A DNA stretch of 64,000 nucleotides from a virus (taxonomy: Duplodnaviria > Heunggongvirae > Uroviricota > Caudoviricetes): positions 71,267-135,266 of the IMG/VR virus record IMGVR_UViG_3300035701_000006. One strand, given 5' to 3'. The notes under the pieces are model-generated. The model was not told the DNA's origin and did no database searches. It was given only the letters and a program-made list of their open reading frames with translations. Made by a program: the position numbers and the translations under genes. Positions 24,536 to 57,500 of the stretch are shown here, in pieces (position 1 is the first letter of the stretch; every line of letters begins with the position of its first letter).

Positions 24536-25317
24536 AAGTCACCTCAAAAGCCCAGAACGAGTAAGCGAGCTTGGATGGCACTTGCACTTGCAGTTCAACG
24601 AATAACACCCCGTATGTCTATTCCCCCTGCAGCTATTGCTGATCCCATCCTTCATCTGATGGTATCGGTAATGCCGCTGCGAATTTGGGCGATCGACCGT
24701 GAAGCGGGATATAAGGCGCTCGCTGAGCTTGGGGATGCTCCTGGCCGGCGAGTCGCTGTTTTTCACTGTCTTACGGGTTCCCATAAGGCCTTCCAGATAG
24801 TGGGCTGCTTAGGCGCTTTCGCCCCGGTGATTGCCCCATGGCCATACGGCCATGTTGACGGGCATCTCTCCGTATCGCTGCCCACCTCCTTGAAGGCCTT
24901 GCGGCCTTGTAGGTCTGGTACCCCCGGCCGGACTTGCACCGACACTCCCAGTTCCGAAGACTGGTGCGCTATCTTTTACGCTACGGGGGCCTAACCCTCT
25001 AGGGCGCGTGTCGCGTTGTCGCCCCACGGGTTGTTATTGTGTTTGAAGCTGTGGTCTGGCAGAGGCTTTGGTGCTCCTGGGGACCAGCACGCTTGGCAAT
25101 AGACGAGTCCACGGTCCGTGAATTTAGGTATGATCTTTCCGTGTTTCTTTAATTCGCGCTCACAATCATGCTTCCTGTTGAGCGGAGCCTTACAACCATG
25201 GCATATCCACCGGGTCTTCTTACCGCGCCGAGGCTGTACTTGTTTTCTCATTTGGTATCCTAAGGAAAACAGATTATCCGGCAGGTGTCGTTTACAGACA
25301 CTAAATGCGAGATGTCA

Positions 25318-34167: not shown

Positions 34168-34623
34168 ATGAGATTTGCACAACGGCTGGATGAAGCTCTC
34201 GGCACTCGACCCCTTTCACTATTAAAGGGGGCTCTCGTAGTTCCGGTCCCGAATCCCCGTGTGAACCTCCCCGAGAAAGGCCTCCAGATTCGCGGCGAAT
34301 ATCACATCACGATCCTAGAACCAGATGAGGTTGGCGATCTCCAGGACAGGAAAGGGTGGCGACCTGAACAGCTTGCTGAGAAATTCGTCGGTCAGGTCGT
34401 CCCAGGAGAGCCGAAATATGGCTGTCTTGGACGGCAGGTAGAGCCTGGAAAGGATGCTGATGATCCGAGCGCGAACGCAGTCTATTTCATCGTAGTGGAC
34501 TGGTCGGAGGCGCAGGATCTAAGGCATCGTCTTGGCTTCGAACCGACTGACCTACATGTCACCGTCGGATTTCGTCAGAAGGATATTCACGGCGTACCGA
34601 AGGACGCGTCGACTTGCCTCTAG
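34168..34623 (+). CDS. hypothetical protein (shares RLDEALG N-terminal motif with the 52585 ORF)
   Basis: 151-aa ORF. Confidence 0.35.
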   Translation: MRFAQRLDEALGTRPLSLLKGALVVPVPNPRVNLPEKGLQIRGEYHITILEPDEVGDLQDRKGWRPEQLAEKFVGQVVPGEPKYGCLGRQVEPGKDADDPSANAVYFIVVDWSEAQDLRHRLGFEPTDLHVTVGFRQKDIHGVPKDASTCL

Positions 34624-35195: not shown

Positions 35196-35270
35196 TGGTA
35201 CCCCCGGGAGGAGTTGCACCTCCACTACGAATTTAGAGGATTCGCAGGCTATCTATTACCGAACGGGGGC
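35196..35270 (-). tRNA. tRNA-Arg (UCU)
   Basis: acceptor GCCCCCG/CGGGGGT, anticodon stem CGAAT/ATTCG, loop CCTCTAA (C33), T arm GGAGG-TGCAACT-CCTCC, CCA. Confidence 0.5.
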
Positions 35271-35437: not shown

Positions 35438-37081
35438 TTACTCGCTGTCGGCCTTTTCCTTCCCGAACGTGTCCAGGTCGATCTTGCGGACTTCCTCGAC
35501 CTGGTTCGAAGTGCCGTTCACGACCAGCGGGATGTACCTGAGCACCGAGTCCGACCACCCACTGACGTAGTGAACGTCCGGGTAACCCGCCGGGGCGACC
35601 CAATCGCGGTACGGCGCGATGTTGATGAGCACGGCCTTGGCCTTCGGGCTGCGGGTGCGCTTGTACTTCTCCCACGCCGTAAGGAACCCGCTGCCGGCCC
35701 AGTCCTCGCTGTCCGTGATTCCGATGAACGTGTCGATCACGAGGCCGCGGTGTCCGAGGTACTCGATCGGAGCACCGAGGTTCGTCCCGCCGATCGCTAC
35801 GCCAATCTTGGCCGCGATGTCCATGATCGTCGAGCGGCGGCTGAGACCCTTGGTCAGGTCGGTCCTGACCCCGTTCTCGAACGGCAGAAGGATGACGTTC
35901 TCCTGCTTCTTGAACAGCGCCGCTCCGAACAGACCCGCGATGTCGCACATGCGTGTGCTGCCGCGGTCGGAAACCTGGCTGCTCATCGAGCCGGAGACGT
36001 CGTTCGAGATGCAGACGCGGCCCGGAAGAGTCTCGACGTTCTCGAAGCTCTGCTCGAGGGCATCCACGATGGCGTCCTTGACGGCCTGATGGCCCTGGAA
36101 CGCCTGGAACGCGTTGAAGAAGCGGAACGGGAACTGCTTGCTCTTGCGGACGTTCTCCTTGTCAGAGAGCTTGCCCGCAACCAGCTTGGCGACTGCGTCG
36201 TCCTTGAAGACGTCGTGCCGCTCCATCGTGGCGAGGTTCCGTAGGAGGGCCATGTACGGCATGCCCGCCAGCAGCGCCTTCCAGATGTTCACGGTCATCT
36301 TCTTGACGGACGGGACGACGACCTCCCACGGGAGGCGGTACTTCACGACGAGGTCGATGATCTGAGCCTCGTCGGTCGAGCGCTTGAGCGTCTCAAGTGC
36401 CCAGACGAGCGGATTGGTCGGAGAGGGACTGGCACCGACGCTCTGCCAACCCTTGACCAGCCATCCGAACAGCTCTTCCTGGGCGCGGTTGACAGGCCGG
36501 GGATGTGCCATCCGGATGATGTCGCGGAGCGTAATGTCTTCGGAGCGTGCCGAGCCGTACTTCACGGCGTGGTACTCCGAGATGTGCTGCAGCCAGCGCT
36601 TGACGGCATCCCGTGCCTCGCCGCCGAGACCCTTGCGGATCTCGCCCGTGCGGCAGAGCGACACGAACTCGCGCAGGTCGTCGGGGGTCTTGACAACGTG
36701 CTGGAAGGCCGCCCGGAAGTTAGTCTTCTTGGCGGTCTTCTCGTGCGCGGAGAGCACGGTGAGGCCCACGACGGGGGCCAGCTTCATGAGGCCCTTTGTG
36801 CGGGCGTAGACGAGGGCCTTCGCGAGGAAGGTGGGGTCCTTCTCCGCCATCTTGGTGATGACGTCCACCGTTTCCTTGGCGAGGGTCTTCTCGTCCGCGT
36901 AGAAGGTGTTCCCGAGCGTGTTGGTCGTGAGGACTGCGAGCGTGTCCTCTTCGATCGACCGGTCGAATGTGGGGAATCCCTCCTTGTTGAGCTTCGTGGC
37001 CTTCCGGTAGGTCTTGGAGATCTGAAGGCCCGTGCGGGGTGACGCCGGAGACGTGCCGAACAGCTTGCTTGCCCTGGCCAT
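35438..37081 (-). CDS. rsr: Ro60/Rsr ortholog (TROVE domain plus vWA domain)
   Basis: TTNTLGNTFYADEKTL resembles the TROVE GGxYYASExKL segment; C-terminal vWA with MIDAS motif DVSGSMSS; AGGAGG Shine-Dalgarno before ATG (MARASKLF). Confidence 0.75.
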   Translation of the reverse strand: MARASKLFGTSPASPRTGLQISKTYRKATKLNKEGFPTFDRSIEEDTLAVLTTNTLGNTFYADEKTLAKETVDVITKMAEKDPTFLAKALVYARTKGLMKLAPVVGLTVLSAHEKTAKKTNFRAAFQHVVKTPDDLREFVSLCRTGEIRKGLGGEARDAVKRWLQHISEYHAVKYGSARSEDITLRDIIRMAHPRPVNRAQEELFGWLVKGWQSVGASPSPTNPLVWALETLKRSTDEAQIIDLVVKYRLPWEVVVPSVKKMTVNIWKALLAGMPYMALLRNLATMERHDVFKDDAVAKLVAGKLSDKENVRKSKQFPFRFFNAFQAFQGHQAVKDAIVDALEQSFENVETLPGRVCISNDVSGSMSSQVSDRGSTRMCDIAGLFGAALFKKQENVILLPFENGVRTDLTKGLSRRSTIMDIAAKIGVAIGGTNLGAPIEYLGHRGLVIDTFIGITDSEDWAGSGFLTAWEKYKRTRSPKAKAVLINIAPYRDWVAPAGYPDVHYVSGWSDSVLRYIPLVVNGTSNQVEEVRKIDLDTFGKEKADSE

Positions 37082-37137
37082 TCTTGGCCCTCCTTGATGG
37101 AGCCGGGGCAAAAGCCCCAGCAGTTTCCTGGAACGTG

Positions 37138-37166
37138 ATTTTATCTCGCCTTGTCTCCTCAGTCAA
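37138..37166 (-). promoter_or_regulatory. sigma-70 promoter TTGACT-N17-TAAAAT on minus strand upstream of rsr
   Basis: reverse complement of 37161-37166 is TTGACT and of 37138-37143 is TAAAAT, 17-nt spacer. Confidence 0.5.
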
Positions 37167-38763: not shown

Positions 38764-39468
38764 TCCCCGGCTTCGCGATCATGTCAGATTGTCACCACGA
38801 TTACACCGCTCTCCATTCGGACGACGATCTTTCCATGGCTAAACTCGACCTTGCGGACCTTTTGGTTTAGCCGTTCGACGGCTTGTATGATTGCCGCCCT
38901 AGCACCGTCACTTGGCGGCTTGTGGAGAAATGGCCTGATAGCCTTCTCTAGTTCGTTGCACATTCAGTAAGTCGTCGATTGGGGCAATTAGTGTTCAAGG
39001 GGTTGTCGCAGTGCCGTTTTTTGGTTTCATGAAGCAGGTCTTCTGCTTCAATCCCCCGCTCCGTACATCGGCCTGGACGCCACGACGTTCATCCAGTCTC
39101 GGAGCTTTTTGTTCATTGGCTGTGAGTGAAGTATCCTCGAACGGCAGCCCCAATTGTTCTTATGTACTTTTGGCCAGATATTCACGGACCAAATGTTCGA
39201 ATCTCTTACCCCTAGTGGGGCCGGGCGGCAGCTTCGAAATGTCGTATACCATCGTATCGACCCATCTCACGTCTTCGTGCATTCCATTGGACTTCAGAGC
39301 CTTCTTTGCAATGGCGCGGGCCTCTTCCTTCGACTCTGCCCTTACGCAAGCGCTACGCCATCCGTCCGTGTGGTACCAGGATAGCCTCTGATGAGGGTAT
39401 TTCTTGAGTTTGAAGATGACTAGGAAGGCTTGCATATTTGGCCCGCCCGAAGGCGGTTGATTTTAGAT

Positions 39469-39645
39469 GGGGCAATTTGTGGCCAAGGTTTCTGCCGCAG
39501 TAACACGGTTTGGGACCCTTTCGGATCGCCAAACCACGTCATTGCCCCGTTGGTCTTGGACTTGCGCCCAAGCCGATGTTGGCGTCTGCGGTCGCCCTGC
39601 CAACATCCGGAGCTCAGAATGGAAGTAACCTCGACCGGCAGCCCC
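39469..39645 (-). ncRNA. structured RNA unit f of the conserved-terminal-helix family
   Basis: 3' motif CCUUGGCCACAAAUUGCCCC pairs with 5' motif GGGGCUGCCGGUCGAGGUUACUUC; internal GNRA hairpin GAUCC-GAAA-GGGUC. Confidence 0.5.
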
Positions 39646-39689
39646 AAAAACAAATTTTAGCACATCAACCCCCGCGGGTCAAGTATTGG

Positions 39690-44533: not shown

Positions 44534-44607
44534 TGGTACCCCCGCGAGGAATTGCACCTCGACTTCCACTTCCGCAGAGTGACGTGCGTCTGTTACACCA
44601 CGGGGGC
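44534..44607 (-). tRNA. tRNA-Arg (GCG)
   Basis: acceptor GCCCCCG/CGGGGGT, anticodon stem TCACT/AGTGG, loop CTGCGGA, T arm CGAGG-TGCAATT-CCTCG, CCA. Confidence 0.5.
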
Positions 44608-45035: not shown

Positions 45036-45109
45036 TGGGGCCGCCCCCCGGATTCGAACCGAGATCGTCCGGATACAGGCCGGAGGTCCTACCGTTGAAC
45101 GAGGGCGGC
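45036..45109 (-). tRNA. tRNA-Thr (UGU)
   Basis: acceptor GCCGCCC/GGGCGGC, D GTTC/GGAC, anticodon stem TCCGG/CCGGA, loop CCTGTAT (C33), T loop TTCGAAT, CCA. Confidence 0.55.
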
Positions 45110-45529
45110 GAGCTCTGACCTGACCTTCATGAGGATCTTACCTAGGTGATTTTCGCCCTTACCCCTGCAAACGCCCCAGAACGTATCTCCCCATGTGTTG
45201 CCTTCTACGAGTATTTTATTTCCGGTTGCCAGAAGCTTATCACGGAGGTCTGGATGGTTGAATTTCTGCCTGACGAGAGCTTCCATAACCCGCAACTTGT
45301 TCTGTTCCCAATTGGGTCTGAGGGTCACTTGACGCCCCGCGCGCTTCGCCTTGCCTGGAGTGAGCATCTCGCGGATCTTCTGCTGTTCCAATGGGTCCGC
45401 CGTCTTAGCCGCCTGAAATGCGTGCTCTGCAGAAAGATAGACGTTTCCTTCAAGCATGATAGAGACTGGGTAAAAGTTCGACAGGAACCTAAATCCGCCT
45501 TCGAATTCCAGGATGGGGATGTGGTCCAT
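45089..45529 (-). CDS. NADAR-domain (YbiA-like, DUF1768) protein
   Basis: FLSNFYP, SAEHAFQAAK and NHLGKILMKVR motifs; start at internal MDHIPILEF to avoid tRNA overlap. Confidence 0.65.
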   Translation of the reverse strand: MDHIPILEFEGGFRFLSNFYPVSIMLEGNVYLSAEHAFQAAKTADPLEQQKIREMLTPGKAKRAGRQVTLRPNWEQNKLRVMEALVRQKFNHPDLRDKLLATGNKILVEGNTWGDTFWGVCRGKGENHLGKILMKVRSELAALVQR

Positions 45530-45567
45530 ACCCCTATTGAACCAGGTCGCCGTGCTAGTGTCAAGAA

Positions 45568-45642
45568 TGGAGCCGGCAGCGGGGATCGAACCCGCGATCT
45601 CCTCTTTACCAAAGAGGTGCACTACCGCTGTGCTATGCCGGC
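45568..45642 (-). tRNA. tRNA-Thr (GGU)
   Basis: acceptor GCCGGCA/TGCCGGC, D GCAC/GTGC, anticodon stem CCTCT/AGAGG, loop TTGGTAA, T arm GCGGG-TTCGATC-CCCGC, CCA. Confidence 0.7.
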
Positions 45643-45643
45643 G

Positions 45644-45717
45644 TGGTGCCCACGCGAGGAGTTGCGCCTCGGTTTCATCCATGTCACGGATGCGGCCTTC
45701 TGTTAGCCGACGCGGGC
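45644..45717 (-). tRNA. tRNA-Val (GAC)
   Basis: acceptor GCCCGCG/CGTGGGC, anticodon stem CATCC/GGATG, loop GTGACAT, T arm CGAGG-CGCAACT-CCTCG, CCA. Confidence 0.55.
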
Positions 45718-45756
45718 ATTTCGGGGAAAGATACATCTAGAGCTCAAGGAGCCCCC

Positions 45757-48664: not shown

Positions 48665-48670
48665 GGATGC

Positions 48671-48775
48671 GGGCAATTGGCGATCAAGGTACCGGCCTTT
48701 CGGCCTTTCACGGGGAGTCGAGGGCCTTTCGGCCCATCTACTCTGGAATGTGAAGTAACCTCGATCTAGCAGCCC
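48671..48775 (-). ncRNA. structured RNA unit a of conserved-terminal-helix family (two GGCC-GAAA-GGCC hairpins inside)
   Basis: 5' GGGCUGCUAGAUCGAGGUUACUUC pairs with 3' CCUUGAUCGCCAAUUGCCC. Confidence 0.55.
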
Positions 48776-48783
48776 GCGAATAT

Positions 48784-48860
48784 TGGTTGCGGGAGTGGGA
48801 ATCGGACCCACCACAGGAAGGTTATGAGCCTTCCCAGCCCACCAGGGTTATTCCCCGCGA
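48784..48860 (-). tRNA. tRNA-like with Met-type anticodon loop CUCAUAA, imperfect acceptor (possible pseudo-tRNA)
   Basis: anticodon stem GAAGG/CCTTC, T arm GTGGG-TCCGATT-CCCAC, CCA present, but acceptor strands do not pair cleanly. Confidence 0.35.
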
Positions 48861-48870
48861 TTTTCATAAT

Positions 48871-48996
48871 GGGGCAATTGGCGAACAAGGATCTTTTAGC
48901 GTGCTGCTGTTACACTACTGACGGCTTTCGCCGTCAGCCGGGAGTTGCACCCGGACCACTCACTTTGCAGGTGAAGGAACCTCGTTCTGCAGCCCC
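48871..48996 (-). ncRNA. structured RNA unit b: permuted tRNA-Cys-like core inside conserved terminal helix
   Basis: between the terminal motifs: anticodon arm UUCAC-CUGCAAA-GUGAG, T arm CCGGG-UGCAACU-CCCGG, acceptor strands CUGACGG and CCGUCAG joined by a GAAA tetraloop, then D arm GUGU-AACAGCA-GCAC. Confidence 0.55.
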
Positions 48997-49004
48997 GAAA
49001 TATT

Positions 49005-49083
49005 TGGTCTGGGTGACTGGATTCGGACCAGCGGCCTCCTGACCCCCAGTCAGGCGCTCTAAGCCAGGCTGAGCTACACCCAG
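49005..49083 (-). tRNA. tRNA-Pro (GGG)
   Basis: acceptor CTGGGTG/CACCCAG, D GCTC/GAGC, anticodon stem CCTGA/TCAGG, loop CTGGGGG, T arm GCTGG-TCCGAAT-CCAGT, CCA. Confidence 0.65.
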
Positions 49084-49095
49084 ATAAATGTCAAG

Positions 49096-49168
49096 TCCCG
49101 GCGGGAGGTGCTGCCCCTCCACCCTCGGCTTCAAAGGCCGGTGTCCAGAGCTGCTAGACAACGCCGGG
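49096..49168 (-). tRNA. tRNA-like, possible Gln (UUG), atypical T loop, no CCA
   Basis: acceptor CCCGGCG/CGCCGGG, anticodon stem CGGC/GCCG, loop CTTTGAA, T arm GGAGG-GGCAGCA-CCTCC; strand assignment ambiguous. Confidence 0.3.
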
Positions 49169-49169
49169 T

Positions 49170-49253
49170 TGGTCCCGTGGGCTGGAATTGCACCAGCACG
49201 GTCAGAGACGCCAGATTTACAGTCTGGTGGGCCGCTATTTGCCCAACCACGGG
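49170..49253 (-). tRNA. tRNA-Tyr (GUA), type II
   Basis: acceptor CCCGTGG/CCACGGG, D GGGC/GCCC, anticodon stem CCAGA/TCTGG, loop CTGTAAA, long variable arm, T arm GCTGG-TGCAATT-CCAGC, CCA. Confidence 0.7.
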
Positions 49254-49258
49254 AATAT

Positions 49259-49335
49259 TGGTGGACCCGACCGGCCTCGAACCGGCGAACCTCCTGCTTG
49301 CAAAGCAGGCGCTCTCCCAACTGAGCTACGGGCCC
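49259..49335 (-). tRNA. tRNA-Ala (UGC)
   Basis: acceptor GGGCCCG/CGGGTCC with G3-U70, D GCTC/GAGC, anticodon stem CCTGC/GCAGG, loop TTTGCAA, CCA. Confidence 0.65.
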
Positions 49336-49344
49336 TTGATTTTC

Positions 49345-49419
49345 TGGTGGAGACGCCGGGGGTCGAACCCGGATCTGCTGGTTGCGGACCAGCCATGTTA
49401 CCATTGTCACCACGTCCCC
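49345..49419 (-). tRNA. tRNA-Ala (CGC)
   Basis: acceptor GGGGACG/CGTCTCC with G3-U70, anticodon stem GCTGG/CCAGC, loop TCCGCAA (C33), T arm CCGGG-TTCGACC-CCCGG, CCA. Confidence 0.5.
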
Positions 49420-49420
49420 G

Positions 49421-49493
49421 TGGAGCTGGCGGGATTCGGACCCGCTGCCTGCTGCATGCCGAGCAGCCGCTCTGCCAAATGAGCTACAGCCCC
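49421..49493 (-). tRNA. tRNA-Ala (GGC), CCA not encoded
   Basis: acceptor GGGGCTG/CAGCTCC with G3-U70, D GCTC/GAGC, anticodon stem GCTGC/GCAGC, loop TCGGCAT, T arm GCGGG-TCCGAAT-CCCGC. Confidence 0.55.
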
Positions 49494-49595
49494 AGTTCCC
49501 CAGTCTGCATTTCTACAAACTGGGGTCCGTAGAGTCACCGCGTTGGAACCCCACGGTCCTCCTTTCCGCTCCCAATGGGAGCAAGGGGTGAAGAT

Positions 49596-49671
49596 TGGTG
49601 GGCAGTAGTGGAGTCGGACCACTCTCTCCCGCTCTTCAGGCGGGCGCCTCGACCGCGATGGCTTACTGCCC
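49596..49671 (-). tRNA. tRNA-Phe (GAA)
   Basis: acceptor GGGCAGT/ACTGCCC, anticodon stem CCCGC/GCGGG, loop CTGAAGA, T arm AGTGG-TCCGACT-CCACT, CCA. Confidence 0.6.
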
Positions 49672-49916
49672 GCTATTTCTGCTGGGCTTTTGCCCAGGTC
49701 GTTGTTGGACATGCTCGTCGGAAATTCCACCCCTGGTCGTCCCGACCTCGGACGACCGTCTGGATGCCACGGCTGCCTGGGGACTGATTTTCCGACGAGC
49801 TGTATCACCACCGCGCCGCAGCTCATAAATTCCTTACGCTCACGTCTCGTTCATATTTCTTCCATAGCATTTTCGCGCTAAATGCTACGGGTTGGTGGTA
49901 TGGTGAGGGCAATTCG

Positions 49917-50037
49917 AGACCAAGGATATTGTCGCGATTTCACCAGCGCCCCCGTTGGGTCGAACCGGTCCGCGACGTACCGGCACGGGGTCAGGAATCG
50001 AACCTGTTGACCATGAAGTAACCTCGGTCAGCAGCCC
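49917..50037 (-). ncRNA. structured RNA unit c of conserved-terminal-helix family (degenerate tRNA-like core)
   Basis: 5' GGGCUGCUGACCGAGGUUACUUC pairs with 3' CCUUGGUCUCGAAUUGCCC; internal T-loop-like UUCGAUU and UUCGACC elements. Confidence 0.5.
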
Positions 50038-50213
50038 TCAAGATTTCTTACGCCGGAAATAACGGTGTTTGTGGACCGAATGCGCTGGCGTGTATCCGAT
50101 GCTCAGAGCTTTGTGATGTTTCGGAGGGTCGCCTGGCGGGTCGCTGCCGTAGAAGACGTCTCCTTTCTTGATGATCTCGTTTGGTCTCAGTTTGCGCCAG
50201 CCTTTTCTGGTCT

Positions 50214-51086
50214 TCATACCGTGGGGAAGTCGAATACCTGTCCGCGCTGGACGAAACCGAGGAAGCCGTCGGCCTTCGGGTCCTGGGGTGGCTTCGGCTG
50301 GTAGTGGTACAGCCACATCTTCTTCTTGATGTCGGTAGGAAGCGTCTTGAGATCGTCGTAATGCGCGTGGACCTTGGAGTAATAGGGCGCAGTCTCGCAG
50401 TCGTGGAAGATCAGGTCAGCTGACTGGTAGAACTTCGTGATCTGGTTCGGACAGAACTGCGTATCCGTCGTGAAGAAGATCCGGGGGCCCTTCGCTATGA
50501 AAGGGTCACTGCTCTGGCTCCCCGCCTGTCCTGGCAAGCCAGATATGATCTGCGCCCTGACGCTGGGCGGGCGACGGATCATGCTGGTGCACTGCTGGAT
50601 CATGAGCCCGTAGCTGTGCGTGATCTTGAAGCCGCTCATGATGTGTACTGTCTGGACCGGCGTGAAGGAAATGTCCTCCCAGAAGAAACTGTTGTTGATG
50701 GGTACCGGCTGGCACTCGAAGTAGTCGGTGATGTTCATCACCTTCTCTTCTAGGCTCTCGAGCCCGCCGCACAGGCTGTGCTCCCAAAGCTCCTTCATGA
50801 GCTCCGGGACGCAGAACAGGAGAGGCCTCGGGTCGCCAGGCTTCTTGGTGAAGTAGCGGACGAACGCCAGGTACTCCATCCCGCCGATGTGGTCCGCGTG
50901 AAGGTGCGAGATGTAGGCGGCGTCGATGTTCCGCGCATCCAACCCCAGCTTGCCCAGGGCGAACCGAATGTCGCTCCCGCAGTCGATGAGAAGCCTCTTG
51001 CCCGAGGCGGCCTGCACGATTGCGTTGGATTGGAAGTATTCTTCCGTCGTGAACGCGCTGCCACATCCCGCAAAGATGAGCTTCAT
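50214..51086 (-). CDS. MBL-fold metallo-hydrolase (RNase Z/ElaC-like candidate)
   Basis: ISHLHADHIGG (HxHxDH zinc motif), 290 aa, within tRNA island. Confidence 0.6.
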   Translation of the reverse strand: MKLIFAGCGSAFTTEEYFQSNAIVQAASGKRLLIDCGSDIRFALGKLGLDARNIDAAYISHLHADHIGGMEYLAFVRYFTKKPGDPRPLLFCVPELMKELWEHSLCGGLESLEEKVMNITDYFECQPVPINNSFFWEDISFTPVQTVHIMSGFKITHSYGLMIQQCTSMIRRPPSVRAQIISGLPGQAGSQSSDPFIAKGPRIFFTTDTQFCPNQITKFYQSADLIFHDCETAPYYSKVHAHYDDLKTLPTDIKKKMWLYHYQPKPPQDPKADGFLGFVQRGQVFDFPTV

Positions 51087-51165
51087 CTGTGATACCTCCG
51101 CCGCTTAAATACCACGAGCTATCGTTCGGGTCAATTCCCTCTTAATCGAGAGAAGTTGTTGTTGG

Positions 51166-51262
51166 ACATGCCGGGCGCTCTGCCATTGAGCTACCGCCGG
51201 ACTAAGCGTCCTTGTCAGGGCGCTTAGTCCGGTAGACAGGATTCGGACCTGTATCTCCCAGC
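51166..51262 (-). other. split or permuted tRNA-like fragment pair joined by a 12-bp hairpin
   Basis: minus RNA: anticodon-3' CUGGG, T arm ACAGG-UCCGAAU-CCUGU, then hairpin CCGGACUAAGCG...CGCUUAGUCCGG, then 5'-half CGG-UA-GCUC-AAUGGCA-GAGC-G-CCCGG. Confidence 0.4.
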
Positions 51263-51285
51263 TGTATCACCCCTCAGGAGCCCCT

Positions 51286-51316
51286 AAAAAGGCGCTGTTC
51301 ATTCAGCGCCTTTTGC
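51286..51316 (-). terminator. rho-independent terminator candidate after tRNA-Gln
   Basis: stem GGCGCUG/CAGCGCC with 7-nt loop followed by UUUUU on the minus strand (also T-run on plus strand). Confidence 0.5.
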
Positions 51317-51340
51317 GGGGCTCCTTTGGCGGCAAAGGAA

Positions 51341-51414
51341 TGGCTCCCCCGGGAGGATTCGCACCTCCGTCTCCTGATTCAGAGTCAGGTGTCCTACTAC
51401 TGAACGACAGGGGA
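51341..51414 (-). tRNA. tRNA-Gln (CUG)
   Basis: acceptor TCCCCTG/CGGGGGA with U1-A72, D GTTC/GGAC, anticodon stem CCTGA/TCAGG, loop CTCTGAA, T arm GGAGG-TGCGAAT-CCTCC, CCA. Confidence 0.65.
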
Positions 51415-51415
51415 A

Positions 51416-51489
51416 TGGCGGTGCCAACGGGAGTCGCACCCGTGACCTCTGCTCGACAGGCAGACGTGATCCTGTTTCACCATGGCACC
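51416..51489 (-). tRNA. tRNA-Asp (GUC)
   Basis: acceptor GGTGCCA/TGGCACC, D GTGA/TCAC, anticodon stem TCTGC/GCAGA, loop CTGTCGA, T arm ACGGG-TGCGACT-CCCGT, CCA. Confidence 0.65.
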
Positions 51490-52133
51490 TATTTGATCTT
51501 GTCCCATCTTTCGGCGGTTTCAGGCTTTATAGTGACAGAGCTCTTGTTGTTCTTTATTTCTTCGCGGGAGAAAACGTAAGCAATGTCCGTGAAAAGGTCG
51601 TATCCAACCATAAAATCAAAGTCTCCATCGTCATAACGTTTAAGGCTGCCTCTGCCATCTGAACATCTTAGCCTTATGAATGGGAGACCATACCTTTTAT
51701 CCTCGCTAGCCCATCTTACCTGTAGCTTTATTAGTTTGTTGCGTCTGATAATTAAGTCCAAACTTTCGTCGTCGAAAGCTGGTTCATAAACCTCGAATCC
51801 GTAAAGTGCGAGCCTGAATAGTACCGCTGCCTCAGCTATGCGGCCCTTTCTCTCGTTTGTCAATGGTTGATCTATGAAGAACTTGGACCGATTTCCTCGA
51901 TCCTTTGGGTGGTTCTTTTTACCACTAGCGGTGCCGCCGTCTTTGACTGCTTTGAGCTGTTCTTCCTTCGTTAACGGGTGATTTCGCAGCCACTTTATGG
52001 CTGTACCGTTGGACACTCCAAGCAATCGTGCGATTGTCTTGGTTGGCAGCCGTCCATTTTCTCTGAGTCGGATAGCGGATTCTTTCATATCGACCCCCTT
52101 TCTACGCTTATTTTTGCGTAGAAAGGGGGTCAA
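51489..52133 (-). CDS. HTH-domain protein with possible PD-(D/E)xK-like nuclease C-terminus
   Basis: TIARLLGVSNGTAIKWL HTH; FDDESLDLII...KLQVR acidic/Lys motif; 10-bp hairpin immediately upstream of start. Confidence 0.35.
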   Translation of the reverse strand: MTPFLRKNKRRKGVDMKESAIRLRENGRLPTKTIARLLGVSNGTAIKWLRNHPLTKEEQLKAVKDGGTASGKKNHPKDRGNRSKFFIDQPLTNERKGRIAEAAVLFRLALYGFEVYEPAFDDESLDLIIRRNKLIKLQVRWASEDKRYGLPFIRLRCSDGRGSLKRYDDGDFDFMVGYDLFTDIAYVFSREEIKNNKSSVTIKPETAERWDKIK

Positions 52134-52137
52134 GTAT

Positions 52138-52216
52138 GGGGCAATTGGCGATCAAGGAGACTGGCCTTTCGGCCGTTCATTGCCAAAGAATGAAGTAACC
52201 TCGATCTAGCAGCCCC
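52138..52216 (-). ncRNA. structured RNA unit d (minimal: anticodon-arm-like hairpin plus GNRA hairpin inside conserved terminal helix)
   Basis: 5' GGGGCUGCUAGAUCGAGGUUACUUC, hairpin UUCAUU-CUUUGGC-AAUGAA, GGCC-GAAA-GGCC, 3' CCUUGAUCGCCAAUUGCCCC. Confidence 0.5.
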
Positions 52217-52261
52217 AATATTTGTGGGAGCGCGTCTCCGCGCTCAACCGAATGTAGGTGA

Positions 52262-52388
52262 GGGCAATTGGCGAACAAGGCTCCTGTTTGGTGCTCTACC
52301 AATTGAGCTACCGGGCCGTAGTGGCCCAGGTGGGACTCGAACCCACAACCACCCGATTATGATTCGAAGTAACCTCGTTCTGCAGCCC
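52262..52388 (-). ncRNA. structured RNA unit e: permuted tRNA-Met-like core inside conserved terminal helix
   Basis: anticodon arm UUCGA-AUCAUAA-UCGGG, T arm GUGGG-UUCGAGU-CCCAC, acceptor strands CUGGGCC and GGCCCGG joined by a 5-nt loop, D arm GCUC-AAUUGGUA-GAGC, all between the two conserved terminal motifs. Confidence 0.55.
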
Positions 52389-52394
52389 TCAATT

Positions 52395-52468
52395 TGGCGG
52401 GCTCGGGAGGTTACGCTCCTCCGCTGCCGGTTTTGGAAACCAGCCGACTGCTGTTATCTTACGAGCCC
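52395..52468 (-). tRNA. tRNA-like with atypical T loop (AGCGUAA) and 9-nt anticodon loop containing CCA
   Basis: acceptor GGGCTCG/CGAGCCC, T stem GGAGG/CCTCC, G73, CCA. Confidence 0.3.
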
Positions 52469-52999: not shown

Positions 53000-53073
53000 T
53001 GGAGCGGCCGACCGGAATCGCACCGGCATTCCCAGTTTGGAAAACTGGCGTCTTACTGTTGGACGACGGCCGC
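53000..53073 (-). tRNA. tRNA-Gly (UCC)
   Basis: acceptor GCGGCCG/CGGCCGC, anticodon stem CCAGT/ACTGG, loop TTTCCAA, T arm GCCGG-TGCGATT-CCGGT, U73, CCA. Confidence 0.65.
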
Positions 53074-54551: not shown

Positions 54552-57500
54552 ATGGCGAATAACACGTCTGAAATCACGCTGCCGTTCGACGGGCAGGAAT
54601 TTATAGACGCCTCGAGAACTCTGTGGCGCTACGATTCATCGATCCAAGCCTGGCGGCACGTCGGTCCCGTTGAGAACGTCCCGCTTGCTAGCGACATCGC
54701 TACCGGTCTCCTGTCCGCCGTCTTCAAGCAGATGTTGGACAATATTCCGGAGAAGGGCGGCGGCTTCGGAATCGTCGTGAAGCCGTTTCTGTCACTGAAG
54801 TCTCCGACGAATCCTGATGGCGTCATAACGGGTAAGGTCAATGTCATCAGCGATTCGATGGACATTAGCTGCCTCGGAGTAGATGGCAAGCCCCTGATAG
54901 GCGAATGTGGTAGATTCTTGCCGGACGTCGCTCCAGGCTCCGGTGAAGAGGTAAAGCGGCCGTCCATCACGTTCAAGCTGTCGGAGGAGTTCCTCAAGAC
55001 CCTGTGTATCGAGCTCGTGTCGGCTCCGGGTCCGACGGGCAAGAAGGGTGGGCAGGGAGATCCCGGCAAGCCTGGAACTGGCGATGGTCCCCAAGGAGAT
55101 GACGGCGACAGCGGAAAGAATGCTGCGGGTCAGCTTAAATTCGCCGGAATAGACATCCGCGATACGGATGACGTGTTCGACACGGCAGTGACTGCCGTCG
55201 AAGTGGATCAGGAAGGTGGCAAGCTGGCCGTCACCAAGTCGAAGGTTCGTGCCCCAGCGGACGATACACCTGCGACTCAGGCCATCTCGACGCAGATAGA
55301 CAGGTCCATCGAGTTCTCCAGCGGATTCGACTACACCATCTTGATGGCACCGAACGACCCCATTAACAGACCCGATGTCACGATGGTCGGCCTGCCGCAG
55401 GGGTTCGAACCGAATGGTACCAACAAGACGACTCTGAACGCCGTAAGGTTAAGCGCGTTCCTGGGCCTCGTCATCGACGATTACAAGAATCGCCTAGCTA
55501 AGATAGATGAGGCTTATACGAAGGAAATTCACGACTTCATCGTCGACAAGGACGCGAAGGCGCGCGACGCCATCAACAGTCTCGCCTGTCAGCTCTCTGA
55601 GGCTGAATGGAACCTCCCGATAGACTACTGCTGTCTGCCAGGTACGATGATAACGGTAGACAACTTTATAGTAAAGCCAATAGAGGACATTAAGGCGGGC
55701 GAATTGGTTCTTTGTTCGGATGGCAAGATTCACCGGGTGAAGAGGTCAATGGTCCGCCAGGTCGATGAACCCATAGTAGACATCTTGATCAGCGGTGGCG
55801 GCAGGATTCTATCCCTGACCGGTGAACACCCTGTCCTCACGGCTCCGTTTGAAGCAGTACGAAGGAAGGGCCATGGTCGGCGTAGAACCTATCGGCACGA
55901 CATTAGCAAGCAAGATTTCTACTGGTCTGCGGCATTATCTCTCAGGGAGAATGATCTCCTGTTCTCGCCGTATCCGGTGATTCGCTCGACTAGCTTGCCG
56001 CTCGATCTTTGCGAATTCCTAGGCTATTATGCAGCTGAAGGTGATGCAAGAAACTACTGCGTAAGGTTCGGGCTGGGACTACATGAAGGGCGGCTTGCTA
56101 GTAAGATAGCTACCATCGGATTGAGGCTCGGCGCTACTAGCACTAGTGTCAATAGGACGCGATCGTCGATTCAGGTGTGCGTTTATGGCAAGAGGATGTG
56201 TGAAATCTGTGTACAGCACATAGGTAAGGGTGCTAAGAGCAAGGTACTGTCGAAGGAGATAATGGGGCTGCGAGGCCTTGAATTCGCATATTTCGTCAGG
56301 GCACTCTTTGAGGGAGATGGTAGCGTCACTTTCTCTTCTACCGCACCTAGATCACAACTTGCAACCGCATCCGTGAGCATGGCTGAACAAGTTTATTGGC
56401 TCTTGCTCGCGAACGGCATCGTTTCTACCAAATGGTATGGCACATTCCCAGGAGGTCCTAGCAACCGCAGCAAGAGAAGCTTCCAAAGCAGAATCAGTCT
56501 TTCACGCAACGAAACAGCCAAGCTCTGGCCGCAAGTTGGGGGCACTGAGCTATCCATTCCGTCAGGCACGTTCGCTATAGACGGTGGCGTCGCATACCGC
56601 GTGGTAAAGGTGACGAAGAGGAGATATAAGGGATCCGTCTACAATCTGGAAGTGGAAAAGGATAACACGTACATCGCCAACAGTGTTGTCGTGCATAACT
56701 GCCTTGGACTTTCGCCCGGCGATTGCAAGGGTTCGAATGATCCAAAAGAGGCTACGTTCAGGCTGGCGGGAAGCATATTCGGCCCATCATTCTGCGAGAC
56801 GTCCAAGGCTGAAGATCTTGGTACTTATTACGTCCCTGCGGGTGCGGGTCAGTCCAGACCCCTCGTCGAGGTGAAGTACCCCAATAGCGGAGGCATGTCC
56901 TCGACGCAGCTTCCCGTCGGGGGTTATATCGTGGTCTACGAGGGTGGCACGTTGAAGGACGCCTCGAGACCGGACCTCGGTAACTTCGTTGGTAGGCCCG
57001 ATATCGGATTTGGCCTCACAGTTAGCTTCATCGGTGTTGGTGGTAGTATCAAGATAATCCCAGACATCACATCCTGCGACAGGAATGATCCCGTCAGCGT
57101 TGAGGCGGCCTACCGCAACGCTGATATCAGTAAGAAATCTGTCTGGGCGATCCTGACTGCAGTCCCTAAGATCAACCTCGCAGCAAAGATGCCGGCCCCC
57201 TATGACAATCCCTCTGGCGTCATCGCCGTGCATATTTATCGCGTGCTACCCTGTGACGCCGGCGATGTGTACTTTGGTAGCGCCACGTATGGGGTTGATC
57301 CGGAGCATTCAAGCACCATGATCGCCCAGGTCCTGCGAAAAGCGGGGTCTATTGGCATGATGACGGTCGACTTCGCGACGAAGGATGGGGCTGCCATTGC
57401 TGGTACCGATTACACCGCGCAGAACGGTACGCTCAGCTTTGGTGAAGGCGAACTTGTAAAGATCATCACCATTCAGATAGCTCACTCAGAAGACGGCGAA

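What the first reader, a model, noticed from the sequence alone, without database searches (positions are those of the whole stretch)
48671..52388. Six-member family of structured RNAs with a covarying terminal helix, some enclosing circularly-permuted tRNA-like cores (Y-RNA/YrlA-like)
Six loci share a 5' motif GGGGCUGC-N-GNNCGAGGUUACUUC and a 3' motif CCUUGNNC-GCCAAUUGCCCC on the minus strand: 39469-39645, 48671-48775, 48871-48996, 49917-50037, 52138-52216 and 52262-52388.

The two motifs pair, and the variable positions covary across copies while keeping Watson-Crick or G-U pairing. GAUC pairs with GAUC, GAAC with GUUC, GACC with GGUC, and GGUC with GGCC. That is direct evidence for a conserved helix.

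Inside the helix, units b and e contain an anticodon arm, T arm, an acceptor stem closed by a GAAA or short loop, and a D arm. This is a tRNA permuted at the 26/27 junction, which is the architecture described for bacterial YrlA Y RNAs that bind Ro60. Other units carry GGCC-GAAA-GGCC hairpins instead.

The units sit between tRNA genes, about 12 kb from an rsr (Ro60) gene. One locus holding several paralogous copies with a permuted-tRNA core is unusual.
Basis: partly seen in the sequence, partly recalled or inferred. Interest (0 to 1): 0.9.

Follow-up and report, generated by a model that had tools for sequence, protein, structure and literature searches.

The report
Seven phage Y-RNA genes beside Ro60
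A probable giant bacteriophage carries seven related small-RNA genes of the Y-RNA type, the partners of the Ro60 protein it also encodes, and two of them imitate an almost complete tRNA; this is a known kind of RNA in an unusually large and varied set.

Summary
Seven minus-strand units, not six, share a 5' module GGGGCUGC-N-NNNCGAGGUUACUUC and a 3' module CCUUGNNN-GCCAAUU-GCCCC. These form two helices, P1 and P2, around a conserved internal loop.

Covariation is strong. In the window alone 99% of cells pair and 4 pairs carry compensatory changes. Over 30 units from this and seven related contigs, 96% pair, 11 of 14 pairs are compensatory, and 0 of 500 shuffles match.

A Ro60/Rsr gene (TROVE plus vWA) lies at 35438-37111 on the same strand. 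Two units lie only 1.9-2.4 kb upstream of it. Relatives carry 3 to at least 10 such units, mostly directly upstream of their Ro60.

Unit e matches Rfam YrlA over the whole model (54 bits, E 1e-10) but falls below the gathering score. Units e and b hold a T arm, a closed acceptor stem, a D arm and an anticodon-arm-like hairpin. ARAGORN calls them tRNA-Met and tRNA-Cys after in-silico de-permutation.

Covariation places the chain break inside the anticodon stem (28/29), not at 26/27.

Verdict: these are Y RNAs of the YrlA kind, expanded and diversified in an uncultivated huge-phage clade. They form a new variant of a known kind.

The parts
52260..52390 (-). Y RNA unit e, the canonical YrlA-like member. 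On the minus strand: P1 is 52390-52385 with 52265-52260. The internal loop is UGCA (52384-52381) opposite GCCAAUU (52272-52266). P2 is GAACGAGG (52380-52373) with CCUUGUUC (52280-52273). UUAC is 52372-52369. The anticodon-like hairpin is 52366-52354 with loop AUCAUAA. The T arm is 52346-52330. The acceptor stem is 7 bp, CUGGGCC/GGCCCGG, closed by ACUAC (52329-52311). The D arm is 52308-52293.
   Evidence: Rfam YrlA 54.1 bits, E 1.3e-10, model positions 1-114 of 114. Fold z-score -3.84. The de-permuted construct is called tRNA-Met(cat) by ARAGORN.
52137..52217 (-). Y RNA unit f, a short class B member: P1 and P2 enclosing a small hairpin and a GGCC-GAAA-GGCC hairpin.
   Evidence: Fold z-score -4.79. 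The class B architecture is conserved in 6 phage contigs, with 22 predicted pairs of which 8 carry compensatory changes.
49905..50039 (-). Y RNA unit d: P1 and P2 enclosing a T-arm-like hairpin (CAGG-UUCGAUU-CCUG) and further stems. It has no full tRNA core.
   Evidence: Motifs. Fold z-score -2.66. ARAGORN finds no tRNA among 4350 de-permuted constructs.
48871..48996 (-). Y RNA unit b, tRNA-like with a variant elbow. It has an anticodon-like hairpin (loop CUGCAAA), a T arm with loop UGCAACU, an 8-bp acceptor stem closed by GAAA, and a D arm with loop AACAGCA.
   Evidence: Fold z-score -4.09. De-permuted constructs are called tRNA-Cys(gca). Orthologues are L011_1859, L016_9306, L017_9477 and L021_11677.
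48669..48777 (-). Y RNA unit c, class B-like: P1 and P2 enclosing two GGCC(C)-GAAA-GGCC hairpins.
   Evidence: Fold z-score -5.73, with the MFE structure at 0.24 frequency in the ensemble.
39468..39646 (-). Y RNA unit a, a long member: P1 and P2 enclosing three GNRA- or loop-capped stems. It lies 2.4 kb upstream of rsr.
   Evidence: Fold energy -91.2 kcal/mol, z-score -5.81. A promoter-like site ends 8 nt upstream of its 5' end.
38980..39152 (-). It lies 1.9 kb upstream of rsr.
   Evidence: 5' and 3' motifs. P2 is GUUCGAGG/CCUUGAAC. Fold z-score -2.98.
35438..37111 (-). Ro60/Rsr orthologue. The ORF is 557 aa; its true start was not determined.
   Evidence: Pfam TROVE E 6.7e-24 and vWA_Ro60 E 9e-11. 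PDB matches: human and Xenopus Ro60 at E 2e-22, D. radiodurans Rsr at 4e-20, Thermus phage phiLo Ro60 at 2e-18.
39654..39682 (-). Sigma-70-like promoter TTGACC-17-TAAAAT with an extended TG, ending 8 nt before the first G of unit a.
   Evidence: It belongs to a recurring AATACTTGAC-N17-TAAAAT motif. This is a consensus match only.
37138..37166 (-). A promoter-like site of the same type, TTGACT-17-TAAAAT, just upstream of the Ro60 ORF.
   Evidence: This is a consensus match only.
34168..34623 (+). 2H phosphoesterase (2H-SAK), an RNA-end-healing or repair type enzyme next to Ro60. It is context and is not shown to belong to the system.
   Evidence: Pfam PF22547, E 4.4e-20. The same neighbour is seen on contig L018.

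Best explanation
The seven units are genes for Y RNAs, the non-coding RNA partners of the Ro60 (Rsr) protein that the same element encodes.

Shown here:
- Each RNA closes on itself through two covarying helices, P1 and P2.
- P1 and P2 are separated by a conserved asymmetric internal loop, 5' UGC(N) opposite 3' (G/A)CNAAUU.
- P2 is NNNCGAGG/CCUUGNNN with an invariant G.U pair.
- The same module is conserved in multiple copies next to Ro60 in related huge-phage contigs.
- One unit (e) is homologous to bacterial YrlA.

Inferred:
- P2 and the loop form the Ro60-binding site. It is the counterpart of the GNCGAA / GGUCCGA site of bacterial and animal Y RNAs.
- The variable interior is the 'effector' module that recruits a second partner.
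- The interiors fall into classes. One is a near-complete tRNA mimic with a closed acceptor stem (e, b). One has a T arm only (d). One has GAAA-capped hairpins (c, f). One has long multi-stem interiors (a, g).
- One phage Ro60 would therefore be coupled to several different partners or substrates. By analogy with the Ro60-Y RNA-PNPase machine of Deinococcus, Salmonella and Thermus phage phiLo, these would be host exoribonucleases or tRNA-binding enzymes. The setting would be tRNA or RNA surveillance and repair during infection.
- Five units are embedded in the tRNA array with tRNA-like spacing. They are probably cut out of polycistronic tRNA transcripts. Unit a, and the Ro60 gene, appear to have their own promoters of one shared type.
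For: - The window holds 7 units, and the 3' motif occurs 7 times against 0.16 expected.
- Covariation in the window: 99% of cells paired, 4 compensatory pairs, 0 of 500 shuffles reach the score.
- Covariation over 30 units from 8 sources: 96.2% paired, 11 of 14 pairs compensatory, score 0.503 against 0.156, 0 of 500 shuffles, slid controls 33-55% paired. The G.U pair at CG-A/U-UG is kept in 29 of 30 units.
- Ro60 is encoded on the same strand, and units g and a lie 1.9 and 2.4 kb upstream of it.
- Unit e matches Rfam YrlA at 54.1 bits, E 1.3e-10, over the full model. The alignment includes P1, the UGC loop, P2, the YUAY motif, the T arm, the closed acceptor stem and the D arm.
- Contigs found through Ro60 homologues of 53-68% identity each carry 3 to 7 units, mostly directly upstream of Ro60 on its strand.
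- Loci found independently by DNA motif also have Ro60 adjacent: L021 (a 266-kb IMG/VR contig with at least 10 units) and L047.
- The long RNA immediately upstream of Ro60 in L016, L017 and L021 has GGUCCGAGG/CCUUGGCC. This is the animal-type GGUCCGA motif with a bulged C.
- Precedents: YrlA within 4 kb of rsr on the same strand in 254 bacteria and 22 phages, and Yrn2, tRNA-Asp and Yrn1 co-transcribed in Deinococcus (PMC4201824). Thermus phage phiLo Ro60 binds two phage Y-like RNAs and host PNPase (PMC12135203).
- Classes A and B are conserved across phages with compensatory changes: 21 of 33 pairs and 8 of 22 pairs.
- Promoter-like sites of one type precede unit a and Ro60.
Against: - There are no expression, end-mapping or binding data. 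Everything rests on sequence.
- No unit reaches the Rfam YrlA gathering score of 69 bits, and six of seven give no YrlA hit at all. Relatives gave none at E<=1.
- Five units lie 11.6-15.3 kb from rsr, outside the 4-kb rule of Chen et al.
- The published 5' motif GNCGAA(N)G is only approximated, as NNCGAGG. In relatives the 'motif' itself covaries (CGCGG/CCGUG, CGGGG/CCCUG, CGUCG/CGAUG). Ro60 recognition would therefore have to rely on shape, the G.U pair and the loop rather than on that sequence.
- Most related loci were found through Ro60, which biases the co-occurrence.
- The partners of the effector modules are unknown.
Confidence: 0.8

Rival explanations
1. Units e and b are true circularly permuted or split tRNA genes. 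The precursor would be opened in the acceptor loop by RNase P with 3' trimming and CCA addition, and possibly religated at the P2 end. This would give a functional or chargeable tRNA-Met or tRNA-Cys.
For: - De-permuted constructs are called tRNA-Met(cat) and tRNA-Cys(gca) by ARAGORN, and ten orthologues are called likewise.
- Unit e has a 7-bp acceptor stem followed by A, and an anticodon-like loop AUCAUAA.
- M. smegmatis YrlA, which has a 7-bp stem, is cut by RNase P and receives CCA in vivo (PMC4201824).
- The related contig L016 encodes RtcB 3 kb from Ro60.
Against: - Unit b's acceptor stem is 8 bp closed by a GAAA tetraloop, with no discriminator or trailer. Most orthologues are closed the same way by GAAA or GCAA.
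- The 'anticodon' differs between orthologues: GCA, UUG, AUC, UCC.
- The phage already has tRNA-Cys(gca) and two tRNA-Met(cat) genes.
- The same P1/P2 module encloses non-tRNA interiors in five of the seven units.
- No bulge-helix-bulge motif is evident by eye at P1/P2 (no motif scan was run), and no bacterial splicing endonuclease is known (bioRxiv 10.1101/312249).
- De-permuted e and b are not close to any tRNA of the window. Their best global alignment scores are 27 of 73 and 20 of 70.
Confidence: 0.05
2. The units are structural 'punctuation' of the long tRNA-array transcripts, independent of Ro60. They would act as processing stalks for RNase III or RNase E, or as stabilising or insulating hairpins.
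For: - Five units sit between tRNA genes with 6-11 nt AU-rich spacers, like tRNAs themselves.
- P1 and P2 form a long closing helix.
- There is no direct evidence of protein binding.
Against: - Unpaired nucleotides are also conserved: UGC opposite AAUUG, and UUACUUC. So are class-specific interiors across phages whose Ro60 proteins share only 53-70% identity.
- The units cluster directly upstream of Ro60 in relatives rather than being spread through the tRNA arrays.
- Unit e is homologous to YrlA.
- Unit a has its own promoter-like site and is not flanked by a downstream tRNA.
Confidence: 0.07
3. The units are a family of mobile or selfish repeats (MITE-like or homing-associated) with terminal inverted repeats that happen to fold.
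For: - There are multiple copies with conserved ends and variable middles.
- An HTH plus PD-(D/E)XK endonuclease ORF (51489-52133) lies between units.
Against: - The ends are not simple inverted repeats. They form two helices around an asymmetric conserved loop, with compensatory rather than identical changes.
- All copies are on one strand.
- Orthologous classes keep their position relative to Ro60 in distant relatives.
- No target-site duplications are evident in the flanks.
- Rfam gives no intron or mobile-element match. The best is a group II fragment at 15.5 bits, E 2.7.
Confidence: 0.03

Closest known systems
YrlA (Rfam RF02553), the bacterial and mycobacteriophage Y RNA of Salmonella and M. 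smegmatis (Chen et al. 2014, PMC4201824; structure in bioRxiv 10.1101/312249)
   Same: - Both are encoded with Rsr/Ro60 on the same strand.
- Both have a terminal stem with a 5' UGC loop, a CGA-containing strand and a YUAY motif.
- Both have the order T arm, closed acceptor stem, D arm, which is a circularly permuted tRNA mimic.
- The T, acceptor and D arms of unit e are nearly identical to the Rfam consensus.
- Several Y RNAs per genome, and co-transcription with tRNA, are known.
   Different: - Scores fall below the Rfam gathering cut-off, and most units are not detected at all.
- Both strands of the Ro-site helix are conserved and covary. In Salmonella and M. smegmatis only the 5' strand is recognisable.
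- Class A units carry an anticodon-arm-like hairpin whose 7-nt loop has U at position 2 and a purine at position 6. Published YrlA 'lacks the anticodon loop'.
- Half of the class A RNAs have a variant elbow, with T-loop UGCRA and D-loop AG.
- There are 7 to at least 10 paralogues per genome instead of 1-2 (up to about 5 small RNAs near rsr in Deinococcus).
Animal Y RNAs and Deinococcus radiodurans Yrn1/Yrn2
   Same: - Both have a long stem formed by the 5' and 3' ends carrying the Ro60 site, with a variable loop or effector module.
- Several paralogues share one protein.
- The relatives' long RNA next to Ro60 carries GGUCCGAGG/CCUUGGCC, the GGUCCGA motif with a bulged C.
   Different: - The window's own seven units lack the bulged C.
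- tRNA-like modules are not a feature of animal Y RNAs.
- The genes here sit in a phage tRNA array.
Thermus phage phiLo Ro60 with Yrl1/Yrl2 (PMC12135203)
   Same: A phage-encoded Ro60 with phage-encoded Y-like RNAs upstream of it. The CGA(A) motif lies in a stem-bulge-stem. Binding to Ro60 and to host PNPase has been shown experimentally there.
   Different: - phiLo has only two RNAs.
- The proteins are distant. The window's Ro60 matches phiLo Ro60 at E 2e-18, and cultured-phage Ro60 proteins are under 30% identical to it.
- phiLo has no tRNA-array context.
Circularly permuted tRNA genes of Cyanidioschyzon merolae and some archaea (Soma et al. 2007, as cited in bioRxiv 10.1101/312249)
   Same: [quoted passage not shown]
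   Different: Those are matured by a splicing endonuclease and ligase into real tRNAs. Here most acceptor stems are sealed by GNRA tetraloops, the anticodons are not conserved, and the same terminal module encloses non-tRNA interiors.

Membership tests
YrlA (Rfam RF02553) | Covariance-model score at or above the curated gathering score of 69 bits | tested here: not met
   Unit e scores 54.1 bits (E 1.3e-10, full model). The other six units give no hit at E<=10. Relatives gave none at E<=1.
YrlA (criteria of Chen et al. 2014) | Encoded within 4 kb of the Ro60/Rsr gene on the same strand | tested here: inconclusive
   All seven are on the same strand. Units g (1.9 kb) and a (2.4 kb) meet the distance rule. 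Units b, c, d, e and f lie 11.6-15.3 kb away. In relatives most units are within 1 kb.
YrlA (criteria of Chen et al. 2014) | 5' motif GNCGAA(N0-1)G followed by a conserved YUAY | tested here: inconclusive
   The motif here is NNCGAGG, with A replaced by G at position 6 and a variable first position. The whole strand covaries in relatives. YUAY is met as UUAC in 5 units. Unit b has UUCC and unit g has AUAC.
YrlA (criteria of Chen et al. 2014) | tRNA-like domain in the order T arm, closed acceptor-like stem, D arm, with conserved elbow nucleotides | tested here: met
   Met for e and b. Unit d has a T arm only. Units a, c, f and g lack the domain and would correspond to 'YrlB-like' companions.
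YrlA / Y RNA | Physical binding to Ro60/Rsr, and tRNA-type modifications (pseudouridine 55, dihydrouridine) | not testable with these tools
   This needs EMSA or RIP with the phage Ro60, and modification mapping.
Y RNA (general) | [quoted passage not shown] | tested here: met
   P1 and P2 covary. Ro60 is present. The module co-occurs with Ro60 in 8 related contigs, and in the 2 motif-ascertained loci that could be assessed.
Permuted tRNA gene (functional tRNA) | An acceptor stem that can be opened to give a 7-bp stem with a discriminator and CCA; a conserved anticodon; a junction processable by a known endonuclease and ligase | tested here: not met
   Only e has a 7-bp stem followed by A. Unit b and most orthologues are sealed by GNRA loops. 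Anticodon triplets vary among orthologues. No BHB-like junction was evident by eye; no motif scan was run.

The most novel reading that the evidence does not exclude
The class A RNAs may be more than passive tRNA look-alikes. They would present a complete anticodon arm on a Ro60-tethered scaffold. They could then act as baits or decoys for host enzymes that attack or modify tRNA anticodon loops, such as anticodon nucleases of anti-phage defence. This would deliver those enzymes, or the damaged RNAs, to a Ro60-exonuclease or repair complex. Unit e has a 7-bp acceptor stem, A73 and a CAU loop. It might in addition be nicked by RNase P, receive CCA and be aminoacylated as a two-piece tRNA. The family would also be a living intermediate of the proposed origin of Y RNAs from tandem tRNA transcripts. 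A class A unit has exactly the order expected for the middle of a tRNA dimer: anticodon arm, variable loop, T arm, acceptor 3' strand, spacer, acceptor 5' strand, D arm.
Probability: 0.1. Interest if true: 0.85.

Novelty: new variant of a known kind. Interest (0 to 1): 0.55.

Why it matters
Y RNAs are conserved from bacteria to humans, and Ro60 is a major autoantigen. What their variable 'effector' modules do is still largely open.

This phage clade offers a natural series for that question. One Ro60 is paired with 7 to 10 RNAs that share a rigorously covarying protein-site module. Their interiors differ and are each conserved across phages. That makes the modular tether model directly testable, with pull-downs per module and compensatory mutants designed from the covariation.

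The class A members add the missing anticodon arm to the YrlA tRNA mimic. They share the unusual elbow variants of the phage's own tRNAs. This bears on the tRNA-dimer origin of Y RNAs. It also suggests a link between Ro60 RNPs and the tRNA warfare between phages and hosts.

On the practical side, the current Rfam model misses almost all of these RNAs, so Y RNAs in viral metagenomes are probably much under-annotated.

Tried and rejected
1. A 52-position covariance model of the stem module alone (R1) was meant to capture the variable interior through local ends. With filters off it found only fragments of two units. I abandoned it in favour of regex and structure scans.
2. An exact scan of IMG/VR for the 3' motif gave 5 contigs. 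All are chance matches inside coding sequence with no 5' partner.
3. The search for related loci with the Ro60 protein on IMG/VR found nothing. The relatives came from the protein database and the look-up of encoding contigs.
4. A genome-contig scan with the 5' motif gave 28 hits in very diverse bacteria. That first looked like wide conservation. About 70 hits are expected by chance for 18 specified bases in 596 Gb. Inspection showed that 27 lack both the 3' motif and Ro60. Only L047 is real.
5. Rfam on three related loci gave no YrlA hit at E<=1. Rfam at gathering threshold on 18 of those genome loci gave none either.
6. A blastn of the 4.3-kb region against GenBank phages matched only tRNA genes.
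7. PHROGs on ten large ORFs gave no phage structural or hallmark protein. The phage assignment rests on a tail-sheath domain fragment, on relatives filed in IMG/VR and on the tRNA array.
8. I tested whether e or b derive recently from the phage's own tRNA-Met or tRNA-Cys. They do not; no tRNA in the window is close to them.
9. Its two outer pairs show no compensatory change, whereas the competing helix with the strand after the D arm does.
10. I searched for family-2 termini in the related loci and found none.

Full report
CONTEXT

The window is dominated by a minus-strand array of RNA genes.
- ARAGORN finds 41 tRNAs plus a tmRNA, all but one on the minus strand.
- Rfam at gathering threshold finds only tRNAs and the tmRNA.
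- Protein genes between them are mostly unknowns.
- The recognisable ones are a tail-sheath C-terminal domain fragment, an intein-containing protein, methyl- and glycosyltransferases, a NADAR protein, an Apyc1-like metallo-beta-lactamase, a 2H phosphoesterase and a reverse transcriptase.
- GenBank phages hold no close DNA relative.
- Two relatives found by DNA motif are IMG/VR viral contigs of 106 and 266 kb.
- I therefore treat the element as a probable uncultivated huge phage. This is inferred, not proven.

THE OBSERVATION

All six reported loci are present on the minus strand.

A seventh unit lies at 38981-39151. Unit d ends at 49907, not 49917.

The 3' motif occurs 7 times against 0.16 expected.

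A scan that asks only for 'GCTG' plus a 6-bp P1 and an 8-bp P2 recovers six of the seven units. It finds no convincing extra members above the shuffled background.

The common anatomy is as follows.
- P1 is a 5-6 bp helix, GGGGC/GCCCC and variants.
- An asymmetric internal loop follows, 5' UGC(N1-2) opposite 3' (G/A)CNAAUU.
- P2 is an 8-bp helix, NNNCGAGG/CCUUGNNN, followed by UUACUUC.
- A variable interior of about 25-125 nt comes next.

Each unit folds with P1 and P2 as the closing helices. The z-scores run from -2.7 to -5.8.

In the window alone 99% of cells pair. Four pairs show changes on both sides, in 11 cells. No shuffle out of 500 reaches the covariation score, and slid controls pair at 34-50%.

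THE Ro60 LINK

ORF 35438-37111 (minus strand) is a Ro60/Rsr orthologue.
- Pfam gives TROVE at E 6.7e-24 and vWA_Ro60 at E 9e-11.
- PDB matches are human and Xenopus Ro60, D. radiodurans Rsr and Thermus phage phiLo Ro60, at E 1e-18 to 1e-22.

Units g and a lie 1.9 and 2.4 kb upstream on the same strand.

A sigma-70-like site, TTGACC-17-TAAAAT, ends 8 nt before the first G of unit a. A site of the same extended type (AATACTTGAC-N17-TAAAAT) precedes the Ro60 ORF. These are consensus matches only.

RELATED SEQUENCES

Ro60 homologues of 53-70% identity are numerous in metagenomes.

I fetched seven non-redundant contigs through them: L006, L008, L011, L014, L015, L016 and L017.
- All are tRNA-rich.
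- Each carries 3 to 7 copies of the same P1/loop/P2 module.
- Most copies lie in a tandem block immediately upstream of Ro60 on its strand. Others lie inside tRNA arrays.

A DNA-motif scan independent of Ro60 found L020 and L021 in IMG/VR. L021 has at least 10 units, 22 tRNAs in 14 kb, and a Ro60 of 56% identity.

The same scan of 596 Gb of prokaryotic genomes gave 28 hits. About 70 are expected by chance. On inspection only one is real: L047, a Parcubacteria MAG contig with Ro60 140 nt downstream.

The family therefore appears confined to this Ro60-bearing clade. Cultured phages hold only Ro60 proteins under 30% identical.

COVARIATION ACROSS THE FAMILY

I aligned the stem modules of 30 units (A1).
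- 96.2% of cells pair, against 78.7% in shuffles.
- 11 of 14 pairs have compensatory changes, in 69 cells.
- The covariation score is 0.503 against 0.156, reached by 0 of 500 shuffles. Slid controls pair at 33-55%.
- Even the 'CGAGG' core covaries: CGCGG/CCGUG, CGGGG/CCCUG, CGUCG/CGAUG.
- One G.U pair, the G of CGA with the second U of CUUG, is kept in 29 of 30 units.

A conserved wobble pair flanked by a conserved asymmetric loop is what a protein-recognition site looks like. This is an inference.

In L016, L017 and L021 the long RNA next to Ro60 has GGUCCGAGG/CCUUGGCC. That is the animal-type GGUCCGA motif with a bulged C.

HOMOLOGY TO YrlA

With relaxed thresholds, unit e matches Rfam RF02553 (YrlA) over the entire model. 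The score is 54.1 bits and E 1.3e-10, against a gathering score of 69 bits.

The alignment equates these features:
- P1;
- the UGC loop;
- P2;
- UUAC with the family's YUAY;
- a short helix closing the tRNA junction;
- the T arm;
- the closed acceptor stem, CUGGGCC-ACUAC-GGCCCGG;
- the D arm, UAGCUCAAUUGGUAGAGC.

The last three are almost identical to the consensus. A 15-nt hairpin is an insertion relative to the model.

The other six units give no YrlA hit, and none appeared in three related loci.

THE tRNA-LIKE CORE

Twelve class A RNAs were aligned (A2): e, b and ten from relatives.

RNAalifold predicts P1, P2, a hairpin, a T arm, an acceptor stem and a D arm. Of 33 predicted pairs, 21 carry compensatory changes.

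In ten of the twelve RNAs the hairpin after UUAC has a 7-nt loop.
- The loops are AUCAUAA, CUGCAAA, AUCAUAC, CUUUGGA, UUGCCAA, CUUACAA, CUUCUAA, UUAUCAA, CUCUUGA and CUUCCAA.
- All have U at position 2 and a purine at position 6. That is the U33/R37 signature of anticodon loops.
- L016_4039 has a longer hairpin with a shorter loop, and L017_9336 has no hairpin.

I re-joined the pieces in silico in tRNA order.
- ARAGORN then calls tRNA-Met(cat) for e and tRNA-Cys(gca) for b.
- For the orthologues it calls Met, Gln, Gly, Val, Arg, Asp, Lys and Gly.
- Unit d and L016_3823 give no calls among thousands of constructs.

Two qualifications apply.

First, the published YrlA structure is described as lacking the anticodon loop, with its ends leaving through the anticodon stem (bioRxiv 10.1101/312249). 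Chen et al. call the optional hairpin 'V' (PMC4201824).

The same two or three nucleotides ([A/G]G[U/C]) can instead pair with the nucleotides right after the D stem ([A/G]C[U/C]). That helix has compensatory changes in all three pairs: AU/GC/GU, GC/CG and UA/CG. Only 2-9 of 500 shuffles reach its values.

My reading is a composite anticodon arm.
- Two pairs (27-28 with 42-43) come from the strand after the D arm.
- They stack on a 3-bp hairpin with the 7-nt loop, giving 5 bp in all.
- The chain break is at 28/29.
- The third position behaves like the 26-44 pair of tRNA.

With twelve sequences this is suggestive, not decisive.

TERTIARY SUPPORT

In 15 class A RNAs the T-loop and D-loop change together. 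UUCGA goes with GG (8 RNAs). UGC(A/G)A goes with (C/G)AG (7 RNAs). In tRNA numbering, 18-55 changes from G.U to A.G.

The same two elbow types, and a third (UCCGA), occur among the window's genuine tRNAs.

The two types may be two orthologous lineages, so the association is not 15 independent events. Even so, it shows that the mimics track the phage's own tRNA design.

CLASSES

- Class A is the full tRNA mimic: e and b.
- Class A' has a T arm only: d, L015_9841, L017_4569.
- Class B is short, with a GNRA-capped GC hairpin: f, c and five orthologues. It has 22 predicted pairs, 8 of them compensatory.
- Class C is 190-250 nt, lies next to Ro60 in relatives, and shares a conserved GGGUGCAAAGGACG...GCGAAAGC core.
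- The window's long units a and g do not obviously belong to class C.

HOW IT MOST LIKELY WORKS

Shown: the conserved, covarying closing module; the homology of e to YrlA; and the genomic coupling to Ro60.

Established elsewhere:
- Ro60 binds the terminal stem of Y RNAs.
- The rest of the Y RNA tethers a second protein, such as PNPase in Deinococcus and Salmonella. Thermus phage phiLo Ro60, its Yrl RNAs and host PNPase do the same (PMC4201824, PMC12135203).
- Y RNAs can be co-transcribed with tRNAs (PMC4201824).

Inferred here:
- The phage makes one Ro60 and a panel of Y RNAs.
- The common module docks on Ro60.
- The different interiors direct the RNP to different partners or substrates.
- The tRNA mimics engage tRNA-binding factors.
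- The neighbourhood (2H phosphoesterase, NADAR and an Apyc1-like enzyme here; RtcB and LigT in relatives) points to RNA repair or counter-defence during infection.
- Five units are embedded between tRNAs with 6-11-nt AU-rich spacers. They are probably released by the tRNA-processing machinery.

RIVALS

1. True permuted tRNA genes. This is unlikely for three reasons. Most acceptor stems are sealed by GNRA loops. The anticodons are not conserved. The same module encloses non-tRNA interiors.
2. Ro60-independent processing or stability elements. This does not explain the conserved unpaired nucleotides, the class conservation, or the clustering at Ro60.
3. Mobile repeats. The changes are compensatory rather than identical. 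All copies are on one strand. Their positions are conserved.

NOVELTY

Phage Ro60 genes with one or two Y-like RNAs are known (PMC4201824, PMC12135203, PMC7824862).

I found no paper describing 7-10-member Y RNA families in huge-phage tRNA arrays, or YrlA-type RNAs with an anticodon-arm mimic. The held library is incomplete, and the two main reviews could not be read.

I rate the finding a new variant of a known kind, of moderate to good interest.

Noticed in passing
window 51158-51273 (-) and 49701-49811 (-): A second two-member RNA family shares the termini GGUGAUACAGC...GCAUGUCCAACAAC, which form a helix ACAGC/GC-A-UGU with a bulged A. The first copy folds as a cloverleaf with a T arm (UCCGAAU), a long closed acceptor stem and a D arm (z-score -3.6). 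It gives a weak full-length Rfam YrlA hit (19.9 bits, E 0.94). The second copy encloses a different interior. It may be another Y-like scaffold with a different protein site. It was not found within 10 kb of Ro60 in seven of the related loci (L006-L017; L020, L021 and L047 were not scanned).
   Followed up: partly
window, tRNA genes throughout, e.g. 24916-24990, 35196-35270, 44534-44607, 49170-49253, 51341-51489, 53000-53073 (-): About 14 of about 44 tRNAs have a non-canonical elbow: T-loop UGC(A/G)A instead of UUCRA, together with a D-loop AG instead of GG (18-55 changes from G.U to A.G). About 8 others have T-loop UCCGA. Y RNA unit b shares the first variant. G55 would preclude pseudouridine 55 formation by TruB.
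   Followed up: partly
window 52395-52468 (-): A probable tRNA-Trp(CCA) lies immediately upstream of unit e. It has a 3-bp D stem and an odd T-loop (AGCGUAA). ARAGORN at default settings and Rfam both miss it. ARAGORN finds it at a lowered threshold (-ps90).
   Followed up: partly
L008:13985-14286 (+) (NCBI JABAOF010006209.1, 212-kb contig): A bacterial class A RNase P RNA (Rfam 204.6 bits, E 6e-65) sits inside the tRNA/Ro60 region of a related, probably viral, contig. The element may carry its own RNase P RNA.
   Followed up: no
window 20658-20732 (+): The only plus-strand tRNA has anticodon CUA (ARAGORN 'tRNA-Pyl', Rfam tRNA 70 bits). It is an amber suppressor, which hints at stop-codon recoding in this element.
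   Followed up: no
window 53509, 39684, 37168, 27827 (-): A promoter-like motif AATACTTGAC-N17-TA(A/T)(A/T)AT recurs four times on the minus strand. The copies precede unit a, the Ro60 ORF, and two other positions. This suggests one promoter class for the RNA-gene region.
   Followed up: partly
window 50214-51086 (-), 45089-45736 (-), 51489-52133 (-): Protein genes are interleaved with the RNA genes. One is an Apyc1-like metallo-beta-lactamase (Pfam anti-Pycsar Apyc1, 99.9 bits). Its fold is also that of RNase Z, so a tRNA-processing role is not excluded. The others are a NADAR-domain protein and an HTH plus PD-(D/E)XK endonuclease.
   Followed up: partly
window 54552-57605 (+) and 9856-11334 (+): A 1017-aa ORF contains an intein with a LAGLIDADG domain and a Calx-beta domain. 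A separate 492-aa ORF matches reverse transcriptase (PHROG 1423, E 1.6e-38), and a related contig (L014) also carries an RVT_1 gene near Ro60.
   Followed up: no
window 52090-52133 (both strands): A perfect 13-bp inverted repeat, CCCCUUUCUACGC-AAAAAUAA-GCGUAGAAAGGGG, lies between unit f and the endonuclease ORF. It gives spurious miRNA hits in Rfam. It may be a terminator or an operator.
   Followed up: no
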